Both the position numbers and the translations under genes were made by a program. Shown here piece after piece: positions 1-22,353 of a stretch of DNA of 26,871 nucleotides. The DNA is from Okeania sp. (GTDB lineage Bacteria > Cyanobacteriota > Cyanobacteriia > Cyanobacteriales > Microcoleaceae), in the NCBI RefSeq assembly GCF_035285525.1, contig NZ_JAYKGW010000240.1:1-26871 (forward strand), given 5' to 3'. The first letter of the stretch is position 1. Every line of letters starts with the position of its first letter. The notes under the pieces were generated by a model that worked only from the letters and a program-made list of their open reading frames with translations, made no database searches and was not told the origin of the DNA.

Positions 1-1212
1 TCCTTTATCAGTTAAACGAACTTCGACTCCAGAGATACCTGCTTCACCTGCATCTTGTACACCATTAGCATTATCATCTCGGAAAATAGTATCACCGATA
101 GAACCTGTAGGAGCATCATAACCAAAATCTTGGTCTAAGTTATTTTCACCCGGTGCTAAATCTACCATAGACATATTGTCAAGTACAGCATCGGGGTCTG
201 CTGTTTGCTCTAAACCATCCAGAACATTATTTACATCTGTAACTTGAACTGCATAATTGCCAGTAACAACATTTTCAAACAAATAGTTACCATTAGCATC
301 TGTGGTTTGAGTATCAACAACTGTGTCATCTCCTCCACCTAGTTCACCATCAGCTCCTTTATCTATTAAGTCAACTGTGACACCAGCAATACCTGCTTCA
401 CCATTATTTTGTACACCATCTGCGTTTTCATCTTGGAAAACTGTGTCACCGATAGAACCTTTAAATTCCGATAAATCTACAGTAGTAACAATGATTTGAC
501 CATCTGGAATTCCATCACCATTATTATCGGGTACAAGGATGACAGCAACTTTGTCACCTGGTTGTTCAGGAACAAAACCCTCTCCATTTTGTTGAGCTAA
601 AGTTTTTATTTGATCGACATTAGCTTGGTCAAACCCATTGGAGAATGCTTCTAGTCCAAGTAAATCATCACTACTAGGAGGATCGTCATCCATTAGCTGC
701 CAAATAGCAAGCTGAATCTCACCAGTTGTAAAACTTGCTAAAGCATTACCTGTACCTGTGTTGTTGAGAATCCAGTTCACTAGGTCTAAATTCTCAGGAT
801 GCTCAATAATTCCTCCTAATCCATCATTGATAACAGCAGGATCATAGCTTGAGTAAACATTGGCACTGAAAGGTTGACTATTACCCTCATCATAAAGAGT
901 GTTTGGATCCACACCAAGTGCATCGCTCAAACTAGGAGCTGCAATTCCTGTTTCGCCATAAACACCATCATTATCAAGATCAAAGCCGTTGAAACCAAGG
1001 GGAAGATCGACATCAATACAAAAGGCATCAAAAGCTCCATTTAGTATGCCATTTGCATCTGTAATCTCTAAGTCAAAGTAACTAGGAGCGCCAACCCCAG
1101 GTCCTCCAGCGTTAAGATTAGGAAGTATAGAACTGGTGACTGTCACCTGACTTGGGAGCAGGTTGCCTAAATTTGTGATTGAATTGCTCATATTTGCGGT
1201 TGAACTGGTCAT
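1..1212 (-). CDS. Large surface/adhesin-like protein, N-terminal 404 codons only (continues past the left window edge). A ~215-aa N-terminal domain with thioester-domain-like motifs is followed by SdrD B-like (Cna-B-type) repeats.
   Basis: Absent from the ORF track because it is open at the window edge. The reverse complement of 1212..1 starts ATG ACC AGT and runs 404 codons without a stop: MTSSTANMSNSITNLGNLLPSQVTV...YFDLEITDANGILNGAFDAFCIDVDLPLGF...NLDLVNWILNNTGTGNALASFTTGEIQLAIWQLMDDD...KGSIGDTVFQDENADGVQNNGEAGIAGVTVDLID...TTDANGNYLFENVVTGNYAVQV...TGSIGDTIFRDDNANGVQDAGEAGISGVEVRLTDKG. The GxIGDxVFxDxNxNGxQDxGExGIxGVxVxL plus DANGNYxF module is the SdrD-B-like repeat. There is no obvious N-terminal signal peptide. 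An alternative ATG lies at 1191. Confidence 0.8.
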   Translation of the reverse strand, partial: MTSSTANMSNSITNLGNLLPSQVTVTSSILPNLNAGGPGVGAPSYFDLEITDANGILNGAFDAFCIDVDLPLGFNGFDLDNDGVYGETGIAAPSLSDALGVDPNTLYDEGNSQPFSANVYSSYDPAVINDGLGGIIEHPENLDLVNWILNNTGTGNALASFTTGEIQLAIWQLMDDDPPSSDDLLGLEAFSNGFDQANVDQIKTLAQQNGEGFVPEQPGDKVAVILVPDNNGDGIPDGQIIVTTVDLSEFKGSIGDTVFQDENADGVQNNGEAGIAGVTVDLIDKGADGELGGGDDTVVDTQTTDANGNYLFENVVTGNYAVQVTDVNNVLDGLEQTADPDAVLDNMSMVDLAPGENNLDQDFGYDAPTGSIGDTIFRDDNANGVQDAGEAGISGVEVRLTDKG

Positions 1213-1268: not shown

Positions 1269-1437
1269 GGGAAGATGCTTTTTTTTACAAGAAAATAATC
1301 CAGGATAAACTTCTCGTAAATTATTCCTGGTTGCTAATTGTTCACTGAATATATATCTAACTCACTGGGGAAAAGATGCTTTTATTTACAAGAAAATGCA
1401 GAATAAATTACGATAAATTTATTCCTTAATTGCTTTA
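1269..1437. repeat. Two ~70-nt imperfect direct repeats upstream of the adhesin-like gene
   Basis: Copy 1269-1339 is gggaagatgcttttttttacaagaaaataatccaggataaacttctcgtaaattattcctggttgctaatt. Copy 1367-1437 is ggggaaaagatgcttttatttacaagaaaatgcagaataaattacgataaatttattccttaattgcttta. They lie 57-225 nt upstream of the minus-strand start at 1212. Confidence 0.6.
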
Positions 1438-1712: not shown

Positions 1713-1916
1713 TTACTTTTGCTCTTTGTTAGATACTGCTGCGTTTTTCTTAGTAGTTAATAAGCCGATACCACCAACAACTAAAGTACCTAAAATAGTT
1801 GTAGGCTCTGGTACGGACACAGGAGCAGGAAGACCACCAACAGCAGCAGCAGGTAGAGAAGTGGAAGCAACAACAGCGATTGTAGCAGCAGCTAGAGACA
1901 ATGTATTTTTGAACAT
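1713..1916 (-). CDS. Very small PEP-CTERM sorting-domain protein (67 aa from the internal Met)
   Basis: The ORF-track 73-aa frame is used. The likely start is the internal Met (MFKNTLSLAAATIAVVASTSLPAAA, a signal-peptide-like N-terminus). The C-terminus VPEPTTILGTLVVGGIGLLTTKKN matches the PEP motif, then a hydrophobic helix, then a basic cluster, as in PEP-CTERM/exosortase substrates. Confidence 0.7.
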   Translation of the reverse strand: MFKNTLSLAAATIAVVASTSLPAAAVGGLPAPVSVPEPTTILGTLVVGGIGLLTTKKNAAVSNKEQK

Positions 1917-5835: not shown

Positions 5836-6255
5836 ATGTCAGCCAGGAATTTTTTCCATCAAGAAGTTAAAAATGCTCTAATAAAAGATGGATGGTCAAT
5901 CACCCATGACTCATTATTTATTAGTTTGGGTGATGTAGATATGTCTATTGATTTTGGTGCAAACCAACTAATTGGGGCAGAAAAAGATAATCAAAAAATA
6001 GCAGTTGAAATTAAAAGTTTTTTAGCAAAATCATCGGCTATTTATGAATTTCATACGGCCTTGGGACAGTTTATTAATTATCGGGCAGCACTGAGACAGA
6101 ATGAACCTGAGCGAATACTATATTTAGCTTTACCCTTGATTATTTATAACAACTTTTTTAAACTTAAATTTCCTCAATTAGTACTTAAAGAAAATCAAGT
6201 AAAATTAATTATTTATAATCCAGAAATAGAGGTAATTACAGAATGGAAAAACTAA
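5836..6255 (+). CDS. xisH: XisH family protein (fdxN-element excision controlling factor homolog)
   Basis: 139 aa. It has the family-typical N-terminus (FHQEVKNALIKDGWSITHD), then KIAVEIKSF and HTALGQFINYR, and ends EWKN. It overlaps the next gene by 13 nt (ATGGAAAAACTAA). Confidence 0.88.
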   Translation: MSARNFFHQEVKNALIKDGWSITHDSLFISLGDVDMSIDFGANQLIGAEKDNQKIAVEIKSFLAKSSAIYEFHTALGQFINYRAALRQNEPERILYLALPLIIYNNFFKLKFPQLVLKENQVKLIIYNPEIEVITEWKN

Positions 6256-6578
6256 AAATACATCGTTATTTAGTTCAGGAACTTTTGTTAGAATATAGTC
6301 AAAATAAGCCTGCTTATGGAGAAATTGAAGTACAGACAATTTTTGATACTATACGAGATCATTATCAAGTTGTTTATATTGGTTGGGAAAAAGAACATTT
6401 GATTCATAATTCTGCGATTCATATTGATATTAAAGGTGAGAAAATTTGGATTCAATGGAATGGAACTGAATTGGATATTGCAGAAAAATTGGTGATGAAT
6501 GGAGTCGCTAAAAAAGATATTGTTTTAGGATTTCAAACCCCTTTTATGAGAAAGCTTACAGAATATGCTGTGGAATAG
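6243..6578 (+). CDS. xisI: XisI family protein
   Basis: 111 aa. It contains FDTIRDHYQVVYIGWE, IHIDIKGEKIWIQ and DIVLGFQTPFMRK. It is translationally coupled to xisH. Confidence 0.88.
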   Translation: MEKLKIHRYLVQELLLEYSQNKPAYGEIEVQTIFDTIRDHYQVVYIGWEKEHLIHNSAIHIDIKGEKIWIQWNGTELDIAEKLVMNGVAKKDIVLGFQTPFMRKLTEYAVE

Positions 6579-13551: not shown

Positions 13552-15240
13552 TTAGAACCAAGTATTTTCATAAAAGCTAGCGACACCATCCCAGTTACCA
13601 ACGAAAGCATCTAAATCTGTATCTCCATCTAAATCTCCAAAAGCGGGAGCGCTATAAGTTCCAACATCAATACCATTAAGGGGGTTAGCATTTCCTGTTC
13701 TTTCTTTGAATTTAGCTTTTTTTATAGTACCAGTATTTTGGAAATATCGTACTGTACCATCTTTGTTACCAATTAAAGCATCATAATCTTGATCGTCATC
13801 TACATCTACAAAAGCAATTTTACTGTACTCACCCACATCTACTCCATTCAAAGGATTAGGGCCACCAGCAATTAAAGCAAACCGAGGCCGTTTTTGCGTA
13901 CCATTATTCCGGAAGTATGAGATATTGCCATCACGGTTCCCACTAAAAGCATCATAATCTCCATCGTTATCTATATCTACAAAAGTAGGGGTACTGTCAT
14001 TACCTACATTTAAACCATTGAAGGGATTCTCAACAGCTTTAGAACGAGCAAACCGAGGGTCATCTTTTGCACCCACATTTTCATAAAATATAATATTGCC
14101 ATCGTTGTACCCACTAAAAGCATCATAATCTCCATCATTGTCTATATCTACAAATGCAGGGGAACTATTATAACGATTATAACGATCATTTATCCCCCAA
14201 AATGGATTTTCTGTGGCAACTGGTTGATAAAAACGGGGTTGATTTGTAGTACCAATATTCTCCAAGTAGTTAATATTACCAGCGCTGTTACCAATGACAG
14301 CATCTAAATCTTCATCTCCATCTATGTCTATTAAAGTTGGAATGTTACGATTACCTACATCATACAGTTCTAGAGGGTTAGTAAAAAATTCTGGTTCCTT
14401 GATTTCGCCAATATTTTCCAGATAATCAACTGTTCCATCCTTTTTACCTACAAAAAAGTCATAATCTTTGTCATTATCTATATCTGCAAAAGTTGGTATA
14501 CTATAATCACCGATGTCATAACTAAATACAGGATTTTTACTACCAATAACCTGGGAAAAAGTAGGGCGTTTTTTAGTACCAGTATTTTCATATAATTCTA
14601 CAGTACCATTACGGTTGCCCACGAAGGCATCATAATCTTTATCGTTATCTATATCTATAAAAGTAGGCGCACTACGATCGCCTATATCGTAGCCATCAAA
14701 TGGATTTTTCTTTCCGGTTTGTTCTTTAAATTTGGGATTTTTTTTGTTACCTGTATTTTGATAGTAACTAACAGTACCATCTGAGTTACCAATAAAAACG
14801 TCATAATCTCCATCTTTGTTAATATCGACAAAGACAGGAACGCTGTAGGCACCTACATCAACACCAGATAATGGGTTGCCCACTTGACTTTGCTCAAACC
14901 GAGGTTTTCTCCAGTTCCGGGTATTTTCGTAGTATATAACCTCACCATTGATATTGCCAAAGAAAGCATCTAAGTCTTTATCTCCATCAATATCGACAAA
15001 AGCTGGTTGACTATAAAGTCCTACATTTACACCATCAAAAGGATTTTTATTTCCGGTTCTTTCTCGGTAATCTGGTTCTTCTGGGTTGCCTACATTTTCC
15101 CAGTAACCGACTGTTCCATTCCTGTTTCCCACAAAAGCGTCTAAGTCCTTATCACCATCTATATCTACAAATATGGTGTTGCTGTAGCTGTCAACTGCAA
15201 CATCTGCTAATGGGTTTTTTACTTCAAAATCAATTGCCAT
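13552..15240 (-). CDS. FG-GAP/VCBS (integrin-alpha-like) repeat protein with ten ~56-aa repeats and no signal peptide
   Basis: 562 aa. There are ten copies of F(V/I)DIDxDxDxDaFvGNxxGtvxYyeNtG with Ca-binding-like DxDxDxD loops: FVDIDGDKDLDAFVGN, FVDIDGDKDLDAFFGN, FVDINKDGDYDVFIGN, FIDIDNDKDYDAFVGN, FADIDNDKDYDFFVGK, LIDIDGDEDLDAVIGN, FVDIDNDGDYDAFSGY, FVDIDNDGDYDAFSGN, FVDVDDDQDYDALIGN, FGDLDGDTDLDAFVGN. Confidence 0.9.
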   Translation of the reverse strand: MAIDFEVKNPLADVAVDSYSNTIFVDIDGDKDLDAFVGNRNGTVGYWENVGNPEEPDYRERTGNKNPFDGVNVGLYSQPAFVDIDGDKDLDAFFGNINGEVIYYENTRNWRKPRFEQSQVGNPLSGVDVGAYSVPVFVDINKDGDYDVFIGNSDGTVSYYQNTGNKKNPKFKEQTGKKNPFDGYDIGDRSAPTFIDIDNDKDYDAFVGNRNGTVELYENTGTKKRPTFSQVIGSKNPVFSYDIGDYSIPTFADIDNDKDYDFFVGKKDGTVDYLENIGEIKEPEFFTNPLELYDVGNRNIPTLIDIDGDEDLDAVIGNSAGNINYLENIGTTNQPRFYQPVATENPFWGINDRYNRYNSSPAFVDIDNDGDYDAFSGYNDGNIIFYENVGAKDDPRFARSKAVENPFNGLNVGNDSTPTFVDIDNDGDYDAFSGNRDGNISYFRNNGTQKRPRFALIAGGPNPLNGVDVGEYSKIAFVDVDDDQDYDALIGNKDGTVRYFQNTGTIKKAKFKERTGNANPLNGIDVGTYSAPAFGDLDGDTDLDAFVGNWDGVASFYENTWF

Positions 15241-19834: not shown

Positions 19835-19907
19835 TAGGGACGTTCTATGGAAGGTCCCTAAAGAATCAGAAAATTAGCGATCGCTTATTCTGCATCAGTT
19901 TCCTACT
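19835..19907. repeat. Degenerate second copy of the palindrome + HIP1 + tail segment found at 18942-19020
   Basis: tagggacgttctatggaaggtccctaaagaatcagaaaattagcgatcgcttattctgcatcagtttcctac compares with tagggacgttccttccatggaaggaacgtccctataaaattgaaaaataagcgatcgcttatcctgtaacagtttcccc. It contains the stop codon of the CDPS-like gene. Confidence 0.7.
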
Positions 19908-20760
19908 TACTTTCTTTAGCATTCAATCTCTTCAGACCTAAACTTACCCAAGTTATTTGCTTGAGAGGTTCAGGTACTTCTGGGTGTAATCCCTCTGAAA
20001 TTTCTTCAAAGGTTTTAATTGACCCTGGATAAACGAAAACTAACCATTCTTGTTTAGCAATACAGGCAAACAAAGCAGACTCCTCAAGCAAATACCTTCT
20101 TGCTAGGTACTTTTGTCTGGGGTCTTGCACCTGTCCTGCTTCTATAGGTCTACCTCGGTTGAGATACTTCTCGGCAAAAGAATTTACTGTATTTTCAAAA
20201 GACTCATTTCTGCCGTAAAGACTTTGAAGTTCCTCGTAATAAATATCAAAGTCTAATTGCTTGCCAATTTCTGAAATCATCTTGAACTCAAATTGACAGC
20301 TTTCAGAATATTCTTGAAATAAAAGATAGTGGTCATCAATAAACTTTTCTCCAGTACGAATCGCCTTTAAGTAAGCCAGATCTTCTTCTATTCCTTCTCT
20401 CGCTTCAATTGTCAGTCGATGTAGACTATCACCAACTAATACTAGACAATTCTTAAAATTATCACTAATCCATCTGATGCAAGCTTCTACTCGCTCACTA
20501 TAAACAAAATTTTTGCTTCCTAAGCTAATTGCGAACACACACTTCTGATTGTTAAACAAAGAGCTACGCATACTCTGAGGAAATACTTTTGCTAAACTTG
20601 CCTTATATTTATGATCTTTGGTAAAATTGGAAGTACTTCTTGTTAGTTTTTCCTGTATCTTGATGTTTATGACTTTGCTGATTCGCGATTGGAGTAACTG
20701 CAAACGTTCAAGGGAAAGCTCACTCCAATCTATACTTTCTAGGTCTGTAGAACTACTCAT
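19903..20760 (-). CDS. tRNA-dependent cyclodipeptide synthase (CDPS) homolog, XYP-type signature
   Basis: 285 aa from the ATG at 20760; the ORF-track start at 20793 is a TTG. KCVFAISLGSKNFVYSERVEACIRWISDNFKNCLVLVGD parallels YvmC [38 protein letters not shown] and AlbC ALIGISAGNSYFS. RRYLLEESALF parallels AlbC NYVLAEAPLF (Y178/E182). LVFVYPGS parallels the Y202 position. Motif spacings (S79-Y223-Y244) are close to those of AlbC (S37-Y178-Y202). Reference sequences are recalled from memory. Confidence 0.75.
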   Translation of the reverse strand: MSSSTDLESIDWSELSLERLQLLQSRISKVINIKIQEKLTRSTSNFTKDHKYKASLAKVFPQSMRSSLFNNQKCVFAISLGSKNFVYSERVEACIRWISDNFKNCLVLVGDSLHRLTIEAREGIEEDLAYLKAIRTGEKFIDDHYLLFQEYSESCQFEFKMISEIGKQLDFDIYYEELQSLYGRNESFENTVNSFAEKYLNRGRPIEAGQVQDPRQKYLARRYLLEESALFACIAKQEWLVFVYPGSIKTFEEISEGLHPEVPEPLKQITWVSLGLKRLNAKESK

Positions 20761-20838
20761 TTTATTTTTTTGAACGTTTTTTATCCAAAACAAAGCAGAG
20801 GGTTTTTCAACCCCCCTATAAAAAAAATTCCACTAGAA

Positions 20839-21324
20839 TTAAACATTAGTTTCAAACAAAGCCAGGCGCAGTCGCTCACTTGCATCTTCCATTTCAGCTA
20901 ATGATTCAATACTAACAACCATACTACGCTCAATTCCTAAAACTTCTGCTGCTTTAGCCACTGCTGCTTTTTCTTTTTCTTGGTAAACTCCATCAGCACG
21001 ACTCATTTTAATTGCTTGGTATAACATAACTCGGCGAAAATTCATAGGAAAATCGTACTTGATACCATTCAATAGTTCTTCTATACTAGCATTTTTCCAA
21101 TCGAATTTACGAAGTGTTTCAATGTATTCTTCAGAATCTACAGTTAATAATTCTTGCTCATCAATATACCATTGAAATTCTGCTTCTGCTAGTTCGCCAT
21201 CCGCACCCGCGATCGCCATTAATGCACCACCATAACTCAATGCCACATCAAAATCAACTGGAGATGTGATGTTATATTTATTTTTAGCGTATTTAGTTGT
21301 CTGGAGACTTTTGCCGTTACTCAT
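20839..21324 (-). CDS. TerB-like (tellurite-resistance TerB fold) small helical protein, paralog 1
   Basis: 161 aa. It has two A-x-ADG-x-E repeats (GGALMAIAGADGELAEAEFQWY and LYQAIKMSRADGVYQEKEKAAVAKAAEVLGI), as in TerB (IAVASDGVSSEEK / IAVAKSDGNFDDDEKSAVREIARSLGF). It lies 78 nt upstream of the CDPS-like gene. Confidence 0.78.
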   Translation of the reverse strand: MSNGKSLQTTKYAKNKYNITSPVDFDVALSYGGALMAIAGADGELAEAEFQWYIDEQELLTVDSEEYIETLRKFDWKNASIEELLNGIKYDFPMNFRRVMLYQAIKMSRADGVYQEKEKAAVAKAAEVLGIERSMVVSIESLAEMEDASERLRLALFETNV

Positions 21325-21409
21325 ATTTTAGTCTTTCTAATTTTTAGGTTTAACTTCCGTGATTTTATTATATTTTGTCAATAATCCTATAAAAACTTAG
21401 GAAATCTTT

Positions 21410-21571
21410 ATCATTGTATATAGAACCCATTTGGGTTCTATAAAATTAGGTGGGGAGATGGGGAGATGGGGAGATAGAACTATTTTTCTTTTTTCCCTCC
21501 TGGGAGAGGTTAGGGGTGGGTTAACTCCTTTGCCAAAAACCCGCATCCCGTGCAAAGATACCAAATAAGTT
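21410..21571. mobile_element. MITE-like element with TATAGAACCCATTTGG-type termini, copy 1 (contains a GGGGAGAT x3 array)
   Basis: Sequence is tatagaacccatttgggttctataaaattaggtg(gggagat)x3agaactatttttcttttttccctcctgggagaggttaggggtgggttaactcctttgcc...taccaaataagttttatatagg. It is collinear with 26618-26751. A partial relative lies at 23315-23350. Confidence 0.65.
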
Positions 21572-21581
21572 TTATATAGGA

Positions 21582-21793
21582 TAGCAATATCAGGACTTAC
21601 TCATGCGCAACGCAATTTTGTCATTGCTCGCGAGGCGCATTTGCGAAGCAGTCCGTCAGGATAGCAATCTCAAACCCTTATTTTTCCTACCTCATGGCTT
21701 TAGCCCTAAATATGAAATCATTTGTGAGAAAAAACTGTAGGGGTTTAGTCTCCAAATCCTTTAGCGCTTGGGCTTCAAAACCAAACCCCTACC
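21582..21793. repeat. Two further hairpin repeats between the TerB-like paralogs
   Basis: 21582-21648 is caggacttactcatgcgcaacgcaattttgtcattgctcgcgaggcgcatttgcgaagcagtccgtc. It is flanked by direct aggatagcaat copies at 21569 and 21649. 21735-21793 is ctgtaggggtttag...cttcaaaaccaaacccctacc, the same family as 4812-4838. Confidence 0.6.
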
Positions 21794-21867
21794 ATAAAAT
21801 CTTACAACTTATTGAGGACAGAGGAGCTTTTTTGAAACCCCTCTATAAAAAAAAGTTGTCTCCAGAA

Positions 21868-22353
21868 TTAAACATCAATTTCAAATAAAGTAAGTCGTAG
21901 TTGCTCACTCTCTTCTTCCTTTTTTGCCAATGACTCAAGCTTAATCAGCATACTATTCTCAAGACCCAAAAGTTCTGATGCTCTAGCCACTGCTATTTTT
22001 TCTTGTCCTTGATAATCTCCATCAGCGCGACTCATTTTAATTGCTTGGTACAACATAACTCGGCGAAAATTCATAGGAAAATCGTACTTTATCCCCCTTA
22101 ATAGCTCTCCTATGTCAGCATTTTGCCAATCAAATTTACGGAGCGCTTCAATGTACTCTTCATACTCAACAAACAAAATTTCTTGTTCGTCAATATACCA
22201 TTGAAATTCTCTTTCTGTTAACTCACCATCCGCACCAGCGATCGCCATCAATGCACCACCATAATTTACTGCCACATCAAAATCAATTGGTGCATTAAGG
22301 TTATACCTTTTTTGGGCATATTTAGTTGGATGGAGACTTTTCCCCCTACTCAT
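21868..22353 (-). CDS. TerB-like small helical protein, paralog 2
   Basis: 161 aa. It is collinear with paralog 1 with no gaps and 117/161 identical residues by my hand alignment. It has the same two ADG motifs. Confidence 0.78.
   Translation of the reverse strand: MSRGKSLHPTKYAQKRYNLNAPIDFDVAVNYGGALMAIAGADGELTEREFQWYIDEQEILFVEYEEYIEALRKFDWQNADIGELLRGIKYDFPMNFRRVMLYQAIKMSRADGDYQGQEKIAVARASELLGLENSMLIKLESLAKKEEESEQLRLTLFEIDV

What the first reader, a model, noticed from the sequence alone, without database searches (positions are those of the whole stretch)
1..1212. Thioester-domain-like (Cys ... [T]QxAIW) N-terminal module on a cyanobacterial SdrD-B-repeat protein
The N-terminal ~215 aa contain AFC(65)IDVD. 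About 100 residues later comes NLDLVNWILNN...TTGEIQ(167)LAIWQLMDD. This is the layout of the internal Cys-Gln thioester domains (TQXA/TED) of Gram-positive adhesins such as SfbI, Cpa and TIE proteins: (F/Y)C(I/L/V)(D/E), then an ...IL.NG... segment, then TQxA(I/V)W. As in those adhesins, the domain is followed by Cna-B/SdrD-B-type stalk repeats. TEDs mediate covalent attachment to host or target molecules. A cyanobacterial example, particularly in a genome showing signs of host-restricted erosion, would be notable. There are deviations: Ile replaces Thr before the Gln, the Cys-Gln spacing (~102 aa) is shorter than the ~150 aa I recall for characterised TEDs, there is no N-terminal signal peptide, and the C-terminus lies outside the window.
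Basis: partly seen in the sequence, partly recalled or inferred. Interest (0 to 1): 0.65.

Follow-up and report, generated by a model that had tools for sequence, protein, structure and literature searches.

The report
Divergent thioester adhesin domain in Okeania
The start of this cyanobacterial gene encodes a distant relative of the "thioester domains" that Gram-positive pathogens use to bond chemically to their targets. The reactive bond is predicted between Cys65 and Gln239, not Gln167 as first proposed, and the domain belongs to a large unstudied family in Gram-negative bacteria and archaea.

Summary
A minus-strand gene (window 1212 to 1, cut by the contig end) encodes AFC(65)IDVD and GEIQ(167)LAIW, followed by SdrD_B repeats.

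The thioester-domain (TED) reading is supported indirectly.
- The protein has no Pfam, NCBIfam or PDB sequence hit of its own.
- 29 of 85 homologues match Pfam TED (PF08341), five above the curated cut-off.
- In six homologues the conserved Cys falls on the same profile position as the functionally essential Cys of the pLS20 TED.
- Two AlphaFold models find only solved TEDs as credible matches (CpTIE 5A0G, probability 1.0, TM about 0.55).

The proposed bond is wrong. In solved TEDs the Gln of the TQxxΦW helix motif only packs against the Cys. The bonding Gln lies in a C-terminal β-strand. Here that is Gln239, conserved in 84 of 84 sequences and a median of 124 residues after the Cys (129 in CpTIE).

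The domain belongs to a family of at least 7,599 sequence clusters across cyanobacteria, other diderm bacteria and archaea. The papers I read describe TEDs only in Gram-positive bacteria.

The cyanobacterial proteins have no signal peptide, LPXTG, PEP-CTERM or RTX motif, so export and anchoring are unexplained. The thioester itself is untested.

The parts
1..1212 (-). 5' part (404 codons) of a gene for a large, acidic, signal-peptide-less surface-type protein. The C-terminus lies beyond the contig end. The likely true start is the ATG at 1191-1189 (M8).
   Evidence: Translation. It is identical to NCBI protein P0001, 'SdrD B-like domain-containing protein, partial [Okeania sp.]', on a contig of 26,871 bases. 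pI 4.05, 68 Asp+Glu against 7 Lys+Arg, a single Cys.
469..1155 (-). Thioester-domain (TED)-like module, residues about 20-248, with Class-I-like topology: strands A-D, a helical sub-domain, then strands P and Q.
   Evidence: AlphaFold2 model: pLDDT 85.3, pTM 0.85, six strands plus helices. The Foldseek top 8 PDB hits are all TEDs (5a0g, 5a0d, 5a0n) at probability 0.80-1.00 (1.00 for 5a0g), target-normalised TM 0.47-0.57 (0.55-0.57 for 5a0g/5a0d). 29 of 85 homologues hit Pfam TED.
1012..1023 (-). F64-C65-I66-D67, matching the [YFL]-C-Φ-ζ motif. C65 (codon 1018-1020) is the predicted thioester cysteine at the end of strand C.
   Evidence: Cys in 81 of the 82 sequences with a residue in this column and invariant in A2. 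Strand 59-65 in the model. In six homologues the Cys sits on Pfam TED profile position 4, the same position as the essential Cys of pLS20 TIE. Motif definition.
871..1008 (-). Clade-specific insertion of about 37-46 residues (residues 69-114) between strands C and D. It contains a DLDNDG stretch that looks like a Ca2+-binding loop, and it is the most variable part of the domain among close orthologues.
   Evidence: Alignment of the query clade against the rest of the family. Cys-to-motif spacing is 100-102 in this clade against a median of about 62. Identity to orthologues is 50-70% here against 81-89% in the adjoining residues 115-150. The Ca2+-binding reading is my inference from the sequence only.
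763..801 (-). HPENLDLVNWILN (residues 138-150), the family signature on helix α1. N141 and D143 are invariant.
   Evidence: Helix 139-149 in the model.
700..729 (-). TTGEIQLAIW (residues 162-171), the subfamily's version of the TQxxΦW helix motif (Thr replaced by Ile or Val). Q167 (codon 712-714) and W171 are predicted to pack against the Cys backbone, not to form the bond.
   Evidence: Q167 and W171 are invariant. Helix 163-174. The literature places this motif on helix α2 and reports it as non-essential for the bond.
475..501 (-). G-Q239-I-I-V-T-T-V-D, the last β-strand (strand Q). Q239 (codon 496-498) is the predicted thioester-forming glutamine and the residue that would end up isopeptide-linked to a target.
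   Evidence: Q in 84 of the 84 sequences that reach this column and invariant in A2. Strand 241-246. Median C-to-Q spacing is 124, against 129 in CpTIE.
118..456 (-). SdrD_B repeat 1 (residues 253-365), a CnaB-like stalk module.
   Evidence: Pfam PF17210, E 7e-30, 103.9 bits against a cut-off of 29.7.
1..102 (-). Start of SdrD_B repeat 2 (residues 371-404), cut by the contig end.
   Evidence: Pfam reports two SdrD_B stretches. The repeat opening SIGDTIFRDDNANGVQDAGEAGISGVEV parallels repeat 1.

Best explanation
The first ~250 residues form a divergent, Class-I-like bacterial thioester domain (TED) at the tip of an SdrD_B stalk, in a very acidic and almost cysteine-free giant protein.

Most likely mechanism:
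- On folding, the Cys65 thiol attacks the side-chain amide of Gln239, which lies on the neighbouring last β-strand. Ammonia is released and a buried Cys65-Gln239 thioester forms.
- Gln167 and Trp171, on the central helix, pack against the Cys backbone. They are not part of the bond.
- When the domain docks on a partner, a primary amine (a Lys side chain or another amine) attacks the thioester. The thiol is released and Gln239 becomes joined to the target by an isopeptide bond. This gives covalent adhesion.
- The clade-specific insertion after the Cys strand probably shapes which target is recognised.

Shown here: homology to TEDs, the TED fold, conservation of Cys65, Gln167, Trp171 and Gln239, the SdrD_B stalk, and the absence of a Sec signal.

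Inferred: that the bond forms, that its partner is Gln239, the adhesive role, and export by a route that does not use Sec. A type I-like route is possible but is only a guess.
For: Homology:
- The N-terminal 250 residues retrieve 85 homologues.
- 29 of these hit Pfam TED PF08341 at E <= 0.01.
- Five exceed the 22-bit gathering score: P0010 27.2, P0019 25.6, P0038 28.0, P0039 27.3 and P0041 24.0.
- P0041 is named 'Cys-Gln thioester bond-forming surface protein' by NCBI.

Register control:
- In six homologues the conserved Cys falls on TED-profile position 4.
- That is the position taken by the Cys of pLS20 TIE, whose C68S mutant is non-functional.

Fold:
- The window protein's model (pLDDT 85.3, pTM 0.85) and the P0010 model (pLDDT 80.8) both have CpTIE-TED 5a0g/5a0d at the top of a Foldseek PDB search. 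Values are E 9.5e-4 and 8e-5, probability 1.0, target-normalised TM 0.49-0.57.
- Other TEDs follow (5a0n, 6fwv, 6fwy). Everything else in the TED part is noise.
- The order of secondary structure (four strands, helices, two strands) matches the published Class I topology.

Bond residues:
- C65, Q167, W171 and Q239 are invariant in the 80-sequence alignment.
- Q239 is the only other universally conserved Gln and lies at the start of the last strand.
- The median Cys-Gln spacing is 124, against 129 in CpTIE.
- The literature states that the thioester Gln lies in β-strand Q and that the TQ-motif Gln does not bond.

Context:
- An SdrD_B stalk follows.
- The complete orthologue L004 has 1,510 residues, with TED followed by at least 5 SdrD_B repeats and further modules.
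- pI is 4.05 with a single Cys.
- The TED part is 67-76% identical between close relatives, against 95% for the neighbouring pgk. This fits a fast-evolving surface protein.
Against: - The window protein itself has no Pfam, NCBIfam or PDB sequence hit in the N-terminal module, even at E <= 10. A profile of the family does not reach solved TEDs by sequence either. Membership therefore rests on transitive homology and on fold.
- TM-scores of about 0.5-0.57 with rmsd 5-6 Å are moderate.
- The residue after Gln239 is hydrophobic, where the weak ΦQζΦΦ motif has a hydrophilic one.
- Thr of the TQ motif is absent.
- No secretion signal, anchor or partner genes were found in the window or in the orthologues. 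Surface exposure is therefore assumed from the domain types alone.
- No thioester has been demonstrated in any member of this subfamily, as far as I could find.
Confidence: 0.68

Rival explanations
1. One reading: a TED whose thioester joins Cys65 to Gln167 of the (T)QxAIW motif.
For: Both residues are invariant. In real TEDs the motif Gln lies directly next to the Cys, so a model would probably show them close together.
Against: In every solved TED the bond goes to a Gln in the C-terminal β-strand, and the motif Gln and Trp are dispensable for bond formation. Q167 sits in a predicted α-helix. A second invariant Gln, Q239, occupies the canonical position and spacing.
Confidence: 0.04
2. A TED-fold domain that no longer forms, or never formed, a thioester. 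It would bind non-covalently, and Cys and Gln would be conserved for structural or other reasons.
For: The sequence is very distant from proven TEDs, with no direct profile hit. The motifs deviate (no Thr, and a hydrophobic residue after Q239). Nothing in this subfamily has been tested experimentally.
Against: The literature says Cys and Gln are the only universally conserved TED residues. They are among the few invariant positions across 80 sequences that share only about 18% mean column identity. C65 is also the only Cys in 404 residues. Such retention is hard to explain without chemistry.
Confidence: 0.17
3. The thioester forms but serves as a self-anchor. The N-terminal TED would fix the protein covalently to the cell's own envelope, sheath or exopolysaccharide. 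The stalk and the C-terminal modules would project outward and do the binding.
For: The cyanobacterial clade has no Sec signal. The orthologues L004 and L002 have no LPXTG, PEP-CTERM, RTX motif or transmembrane segment, so some other attachment is needed. If export were C-terminus-first, as in type I secretion (my own knowledge), the N-terminal domain would emerge last and nearest the cell. The orthologues carry extra C-terminal modules that could be the binding end.
Against: This is wholly inferential. No type I secretion genes or signals were found. In all characterised proteins the TED is the distal, target-binding tip. Most family members are small, roughly 350-residue secreted proteins or lipoproteins with ordinary signal peptides.
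Confidence: 0.1

Closest known systems
Class I thioester domains of Gram-positive TIE proteins: CpTIE-TED of Clostridium perfringens (PDB 5A0G/5A0D), PnTIE-TED (5A0N), SfbI-TED
   Same: - Predicted fold: a six-stranded barrel plus a helical bundle, with no Class II β-sandwich insert.
- [YFL]CΦζ motif at the end of a strand.
- A Q/W motif on the central helix.
- A conserved Gln at the start of the last strand.
- Cys-Gln spacing (median 124 against 129 in CpTIE).
- Position at the N-terminal end of a repeat stalk.

   Different: - About 13-15% identity and no direct sequence or profile hit.
- Val or Ile replaces Thr in the TQ motif.
- A strong subfamily signature, PENLDLVNWILNQ...GEGFVP, not described for TEDs.
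- The Okeania clade has a roughly 40-residue insert after the Cys strand.
- The host is a diderm cyanobacterium.
- No Sec signal and no LPXTG/sortase anchor.
- The stalk is SdrD_B, not isopeptide or ester domains.
Cyanobacterial proteins that Pfam or NCBI already recognise as TEDs, for example P0041, 'Cys-Gln thioester bond-forming surface protein' (Sphaerospermopsis sp. SIO1G2), and P0010
   Same: Same architecture (TED directly followed by SdrD_B repeats, no signal peptide) and the same invariant residues. They are 35-37% identical to the window domain over 83-99% of its length.
   Different: They lack the roughly 40-residue insertion and so still score above Pfam's TED threshold. The Okeania clade falls below detection and is annotated only as 'SdrD B-like'.
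Class II TED of the conjugation adhesin TIEpLS20 (pLS20 gene 34) and BaTIE (6FWV)
   Same: The YC(I)D Cys lies at the same Pfam TED profile position. There is a weak Foldseek match of the P0010 model to 6fwv and 6fwy.
   Different: Class II domains carry a roughly 75-residue β-sandwich (slipknot) before the bonding Gln. No such insert is predicted here. hhalign of the family profile against p34 was not significant.
SdrD/SdrC B-repeat stalks of staphylococcal MSCRAMM adhesins
   Same: Clear SdrD_B repeats (PF17210, E 7e-30; NCBIfam MSCRAMM_SdrD local match E 7e-16).
   Different: Only the stalk module is shared. The scores are far below the full-length MSCRAMM cut-offs, and there is no A-domain, SD repeat or LPXTG.

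Membership tests
Bacterial thioester domain (TED; Pfam PF08341 and solved Class I/II TEDs) | Thioester Cys in a [YFL]-C-Φ-ζ motif within a β-strand | tested here: met
   F64-C65-I66-D67 at the end of predicted strand 59-65. Cys in 81 of the 82 aligned sequences with a residue there and invariant in A2. In six homologues it sits on TED profile position 4, as does the essential Cys of pLS20 TIE.
Bacterial thioester domain (TED; Pfam PF08341 and solved Class I/II TEDs) | Bond-forming Gln in a C-terminal β-strand (weak ΦQζΦΦ motif), about 130-150 residues after the Cys in Class I | tested here: met
   Q239 in 84 of 84 sequences, at the start of strand 241-246. Median spacing is 124 (174 here because of the insertion). 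Deviation: the residue after the Gln is hydrophobic.
Bacterial thioester domain (TED; Pfam PF08341 and solved Class I/II TEDs) | TQxxΦW motif on the central helix | tested here: met
   I-Q167-L-A-I-W171 in helix 163-174. Q and W are invariant. Thr is replaced by Val or Ile across the subfamily. The literature notes that no residue of this motif is universally conserved.
Bacterial thioester domain (TED; Pfam PF08341 and solved Class I/II TEDs) | TED fold: β-barrel sub-domain plus helical bundle | tested here: met
   For two independent models the only credible Foldseek PDB matches to this module are TEDs (5a0g, 5a0d, 5a0n, 6fwv). Probability is up to 1.0 and target-normalised TM 0.47-0.57. The similarity is moderate, not close.
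Bacterial thioester domain (TED; Pfam PF08341 and solved Class I/II TEDs) | Score above the Pfam PF08341 gathering threshold (operational criterion) | tested here: inconclusive
   The window protein has no hit, even at E <= 10. Among its homologues (E 1e-15 to 1e-19 to the query), 29 of 85 hit at E <= 0.01 and five pass the 22-bit cut-off.
Bacterial thioester domain (TED; Pfam PF08341 and solved Class I/II TEDs) | Cys and Gln side chains within bonding distance in three dimensions | not testable with these tools
   The structure tool returns no coordinates. Proximity is inferred only from the matching topology.
Bacterial thioester domain (TED; Pfam PF08341 and solved Class I/II TEDs) | A 17 Da mass deficit that is abolished by Cys-to-Ala, and reactivity with amines | not testable with these tools
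   This needs experiments. The criteria are as used.
TIE proteins (sortase-anchored Gram-positive thioester/isopeptide/ester adhesins) | N-terminal Sec signal, C-terminal LPXTG anchor, and a stalk of isopeptide or ester domains | tested here: not met
   No signal-peptide-like segment in the cyanobacterial clade. No LPXTG in the orthologues L004 and L002. The stalk is SdrD_B. The window protein's own C-terminus is off the contig.
SdrD_B stalk repeat (PF17210) | Profile match above the gathering threshold | tested here: met
   103.9 bits against 29.7, in two stretches.
Type I secretion substrates (RTX-type adhesins) | No N-terminal signal, an acidic Ca2+-binding repeat protein, GGxGxD repeats and a C-terminal signal, and a nearby ABC transporter and membrane-fusion-protein genes | tested here: inconclusive
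   No signal and pI 4.05. However, there are no GGxGxD repeats in the orthologues and no transporter genes in the window or next to L004. The C-terminus of this gene was not available.

The most novel reading that the evidence does not exclude
Reactive Cys-Gln thioester domains are not a Gram-positive speciality. This gene would be one member of a family of thousands of TED-like domains in cyanobacteria, Bacteroidota, Planctomycetota, Proteobacteria, Asgard archaea and haloarchaea, all using covalent capture of amines.

In cyanobacteria the domain heads giant, signal-less, anchor-less proteins. There it may be either the adhesive tip or the device that ties the protein covalently to the cell's own surface.
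Probability: 0.4. Interest if true: 0.72.

Novelty: new variant of a known kind. Interest (0 to 1): 0.52.

Why it matters
Papers up to 2026 describe covalent thioester adhesion as a trait of Gram-positive bacteria. This gene belongs to a large subfamily that is mostly unannotated in the databases searched. That subfamily extends the chemistry, at least as a prediction, to diderm bacteria and archaea living in the environment.

If the bond forms, three things follow:
- It would give a molecular handle on how benthic, mat-forming cyanobacteria such as Okeania attach to surfaces, to each other or to associated organisms.
- It would raise the question of how a thioester adhesin is exported and held on a cell that has an outer membrane and no sortase.
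- It would supply compact (about 190-residue) TED variants for protein-ligation tools.

The practical correction matters too. Anyone testing this protein should mutate Gln239, not Gln167.

Tried and rejected
- Direct searches of the N-terminal 250 residues against Pfam, NCBIfam and PDB sequences gave nothing.
- A family profile against PDB sequences gave only a spurious retinol-binding-protein hit at E 1.3.
- phmmer of the best TED-scoring homologues (P0010, P0038) against the PDB found only SdrD stalk matches or noise.
- hhalign of the family profile against the pLS20 TIE TED was not significant (probability 0.8%). It did pair the two Q/W helix motifs.
- I looked for model coordinates in the sandbox to measure the Cys-Gln distances. 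None are provided.
- I could not obtain a Class I TED sequence (for example CpTIE) for a residue-level profile alignment. The eLife paper text holds no sequence or accession for it.
- AB615352.1 is not in the plasmid collection, so I used NC_015148.1 instead.
- I searched for export or anchoring clues and found none. There are no RTX, LPXTG, PEP-CTERM or transmembrane segments in the orthologues, and no secretion, sortase or exosortase genes beside L004 or in the window.
- The twin C-terminal modules of L004 look lectin-like to the eye but matched nothing in Pfam or the PDB, so I make no claim about them.
- I considered a functional link between the upstream PEP-CTERM mini-gene and the TED gene. 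It is not supported. The pairing occurs only in close relatives, two of which (L001, L002) also share the pgk neighbour, and it is absent from L004.
- I rejected the 'host-restricted genome erosion' idea for lack of any evidence in the window.
Full report
**What is in the sequence**

The finding lies on the minus strand. Translating window 1212..1 gives 404 codons with no stop, and the frame runs off the left end of the window. The protein is identical to an NCBI entry, 'SdrD B-like domain-containing protein, partial [Okeania sp.]'. That entry's only contig is 26,871 bases long, which is the window itself, so the C-terminus cannot be recovered here.

- NCBI starts the protein at M8, and in the L002 orthologue the first in-frame ATG after a stop aligns with M8. 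M8 is therefore the likelier start.
- Pfam finds two SdrD_B stretches from residue 253 onward (E 7e-30) and nothing else of note.

**Is it a thioester domain?**

Direct tests fail. The N-terminal 250 residues have no Pfam, NCBIfam or PDB sequence match, even at E <= 10. Homologues settle the question.

- A search of 5.8 billion proteins returned 85 relatives. 29 of them match Pfam TED (PF08341) at E <= 0.01.
- Five pass the 22-bit gathering score: P0010 27.2, P0019 25.6, P0038 28.0, P0039 27.3 and P0041 24.0. NCBI names P0041, from Sphaerospermopsis, 'Cys-Gln thioester bond-forming surface protein'.
- These proteins match the query at E 1e-15 to 1e-19 with 33-37% identity.

As a register control I ran the TED of pLS20 TIE. 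Its C68S mutant is non-functional in conjugation. Its Cys falls on TED-profile position 4. In six homologues the conserved Cys also falls on position 4.

**Fold**

- An AlphaFold2 model of the window's 250 residues, built with the 85-sequence alignment, is confident (pLDDT 85.3, pTM 0.85).
- Against the PDB, its eight best Foldseek matches are all solved thioester domains: CpTIE-TED 5a0g and its C138A mutant 5a0d, and PnTIE-TED 5a0n. The best values are E 9.5e-4, probability 1.0 and target-normalised TM 0.55-0.57 for 5a0g/5a0d (0.47 for 5a0n). Everything below them is noise.
- A second model, of the shorter homologue P0010, gave the same answer. 5a0g came first (E 8e-5), with BaTIE 6fwv and EfmTIE86 6fwy also listed. 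SdrD hits appeared for its stalk part.
- Both models show four strands, then a helical sub-domain, then two strands. There is no β-sandwich between the last helix and the last strands. That is the published Class I layout.
- The similarity is moderate (rmsd 5-6 Å), so this is a distant relative.

**Which glutamine?**

Walden et al. 2015 and Miller et al. 2018 state three things:

- The thioester Gln lies in a weak ΦQζΦΦ motif in a C-terminal β-strand. Examples are SfbI Cys109-Gln261, PnTIE Cys94-Gln247 and CpTIE Cys138-Gln267.
- The TQxxΦW motif sits on the central helix, with its Gln and Trp hydrogen-bonded to the Cys backbone.
- That motif is not required for bond formation.

In the model Q167 is in helix 163-174, so it is the motif Gln.

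The family has exactly one other universally conserved Gln, Q239 (G-Q-I-I-V). It is present in 84 of the 84 sequences that reach that column, and it sits at the start of the last strand, 241-246. In the 80-sequence alignment without fragments, the invariant positions include the Cys, the helix Gln and Trp, and this Gln.

The median Cys-to-Q239 spacing is 124, against 129 in CpTIE. In the window protein it is 174, because of a clade-specific insertion.

The Pfam TED model also ends before this Gln. In P0010 the match covers residues 58-161 and the Gln is at 197. This explains why the motif Gln is easily mistaken for the bonding one.

I could not measure the Cys65-Gln239 distance, because the tools return no coordinates. 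The pairing therefore rests on homology, conservation and topology.

**Peculiarities of the Okeania clade**

- The query and its closest relatives (P0002-P0005, loci L001-L004) carry a roughly 37-46-residue insertion directly after the Cys strand. It contains DLDNDG, which looks like a Ca2+-binding loop. That reading is my inference only.
- The insertion is the likely reason the clade drops below Pfam detection. Together with residues 216-248, it is also the least conserved region among orthologues.
- The neighbouring pgk is 94.7% identical in L001 and L002, while the TED part is only 76% and 67% identical. The protein evolves fast, as surface proteins often do.
- The fragment has a single Cys (C65), pI 4.05, and 68 acidic against 7 basic residues.

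**Architecture, export and anchoring**

- The complete orthologue in locus L004 has 1,510 residues. It consists of the TED, at least five SdrD_B repeats, a DUF7507/DUF11-like module, and two unmatched roughly 135-residue C-terminal repeats.
- The Okeania SIO2F4 orthologue (L002) is broken by an assembly gap. It continues into three DUF7507 modules and other unmatched domains.
- Neither orthologue contains RTX repeats, LPXTG, PEP-CTERM or a transmembrane segment.
- Most complete non-cyanobacterial family members begin with a signal-peptide-like or lipoprotein-like hydrophobic segment. The cyanobacterial TED-SdrD_B clade does not.
- No secretion or sorting genes flank L004 or lie in the window, whose genes are housekeeping.

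Export by a non-Sec route, perhaps type I-like, is thus an inference from negative evidence and from composition. How the protein stays on the cell is unknown. This gap leaves room for the more unusual idea that the N-terminal TED is itself the anchor.

**Size and spread of the family**

- A profile of the alignment, scored against 1.84 billion cluster representatives, found 7,599 proteins at E <= 1e-3. Of these, 5,116 were at E <= 1e-10 and 1,116 at E <= 1e-30.
- Most are about 350 residues long. A few are giants with several copies, such as P0086 with 3,310 residues and five stretches.
- Genome loci carrying the domain come from cyanobacteria, Flavobacteriia, Planctomycetota, Anaerolineae, Rhodobacterales, Ignavibacteria, Myxococcales, Haloferax, Methanocella and several Asgard archaea.
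- Most hits carry no Pfam annotation.
- The TED papers I could read, up to a 2026 preprint, describe TEDs as a Gram-positive feature. Surveys of fibrillar adhesins report TEDs for Firmicutes and Actinobacteria.
- Automated annotation, however, already labels some cyanobacterial members as thioester proteins. The presence of TED-like sequences outside Gram-positives is therefore visible in databases, even though it is unstudied.

**Verdict**

The TED interpretation is right in kind, but wrong about the bonding glutamine and about the genomic context.
- The best-supported mechanism is a self-formed Cys65-Gln239 thioester that captures an amine on a target and leaves Gln239 isopeptide-linked to it, presented on a Ca2+-binding SdrD_B stalk.
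- I put TED homology at about 0.9, the thioester with Gln239 at about 0.65-0.7, and the adhesive role somewhat lower.
- It is a new variant of a known kind: a divergent subfamily in a diderm host, with no Sec signal or sortase logic. It is moderately interesting, mainly as an entry point to a large untested family.

Noticed in passing
window 1713-1916 (minus strand; the longer ORF reaches 1934): A 67-residue mini-protein made of a signal peptide, a roughly 10-residue linker and a PEP-CTERM sorting domain (TIGR04155 24.0 bits against a cut-off of 21.6; TIGR02595 23.3 against 16). It lies about 500 bp upstream of the TED gene on the same strand. The same mini-gene sits upstream of the TED gene in loci L001, L002 and L003 but not in L004. 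L001 and L002 also share the pgk neighbour, so this may be plain synteny between close relatives.
   Followed up: partly
window 1272-1296 and 1373-1397: Two copies (96% identical) of a 25-base sequence, AAGATGCTTTT(T/A)TTTACAAGAAAAT, spaced 101 bases apart in the AT-rich region just upstream of the TED gene's start. By eye the similarity extends further. They could be promoter or regulatory repeats, or a small duplicated element.
   Followed up: no
whole window: Only about 61% of the window is covered by ORFs of 100 codons or more, GC is 37%, and several intergenic gaps reach 0.5-1.6 kb. The identifiable genes look intact. This matches what I recall of the low coding density of the free-living Trichodesmium/Okeania lineage, rather than host-restricted decay.
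   Followed up: partly
window 13552-15240 (minus strand): A 562-residue protein made almost entirely of FG-GAP-like repeats (PF13517, E 1.6e-27) with DIDGDxDxD Ca2+-type loops. It begins MAIDFEVKNP..., with no evident signal peptide. It is a second extracellular-type repeat protein in the window that lacks a Sec signal.
   Followed up: no
window 19903-22353 (minus strand): A 296-residue ORF with a near-threshold match to cyclodipeptide synthase (PF16715, 26.2 bits against a cut-off of 27). It lies next to two paralogous 161-residue proteins; the one scanned (20839-21324) has a TerB match.
   Followed up: no
window 5836-6578 (plus strand): An overlapping XisH/XisI gene pair (PF08814 E 5e-54; PF08869 E 3e-40). 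These are the excision-controlling factors known from heterocyst DNA elements, here in a filamentous genus that I recall as lacking heterocysts.
   Followed up: no
homologues P0006-P0084; profile hits P0086-P0223: Most family members are roughly 350-residue secreted proteins or lipoproteins. They have an extra N-terminal β-rich domain (DLxAG...VG.V.V..DG..L.V.Y...W...ETH), two further conserved cysteines (at alignment positions matching query residues 218 and 249), and a C-terminal ETAW...NWA.YF.Y motif. None of these features is present in the cyanobacterial SdrD_B clade. One representative, P0086 (3,310 residues), has five TED-like stretches.
   Followed up: partly
L004 13541-14440 (C-terminal region of the 1,510-residue orthologue): Two tandem modules of about 135 residues (EAEDMHL.GY.V.HVGD..ASGGE.IKL...YYDENDGQS...GEFARFD). 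They have no Pfam or PDB sequence match and could be the orthologue's second binding end.
   Followed up: partly
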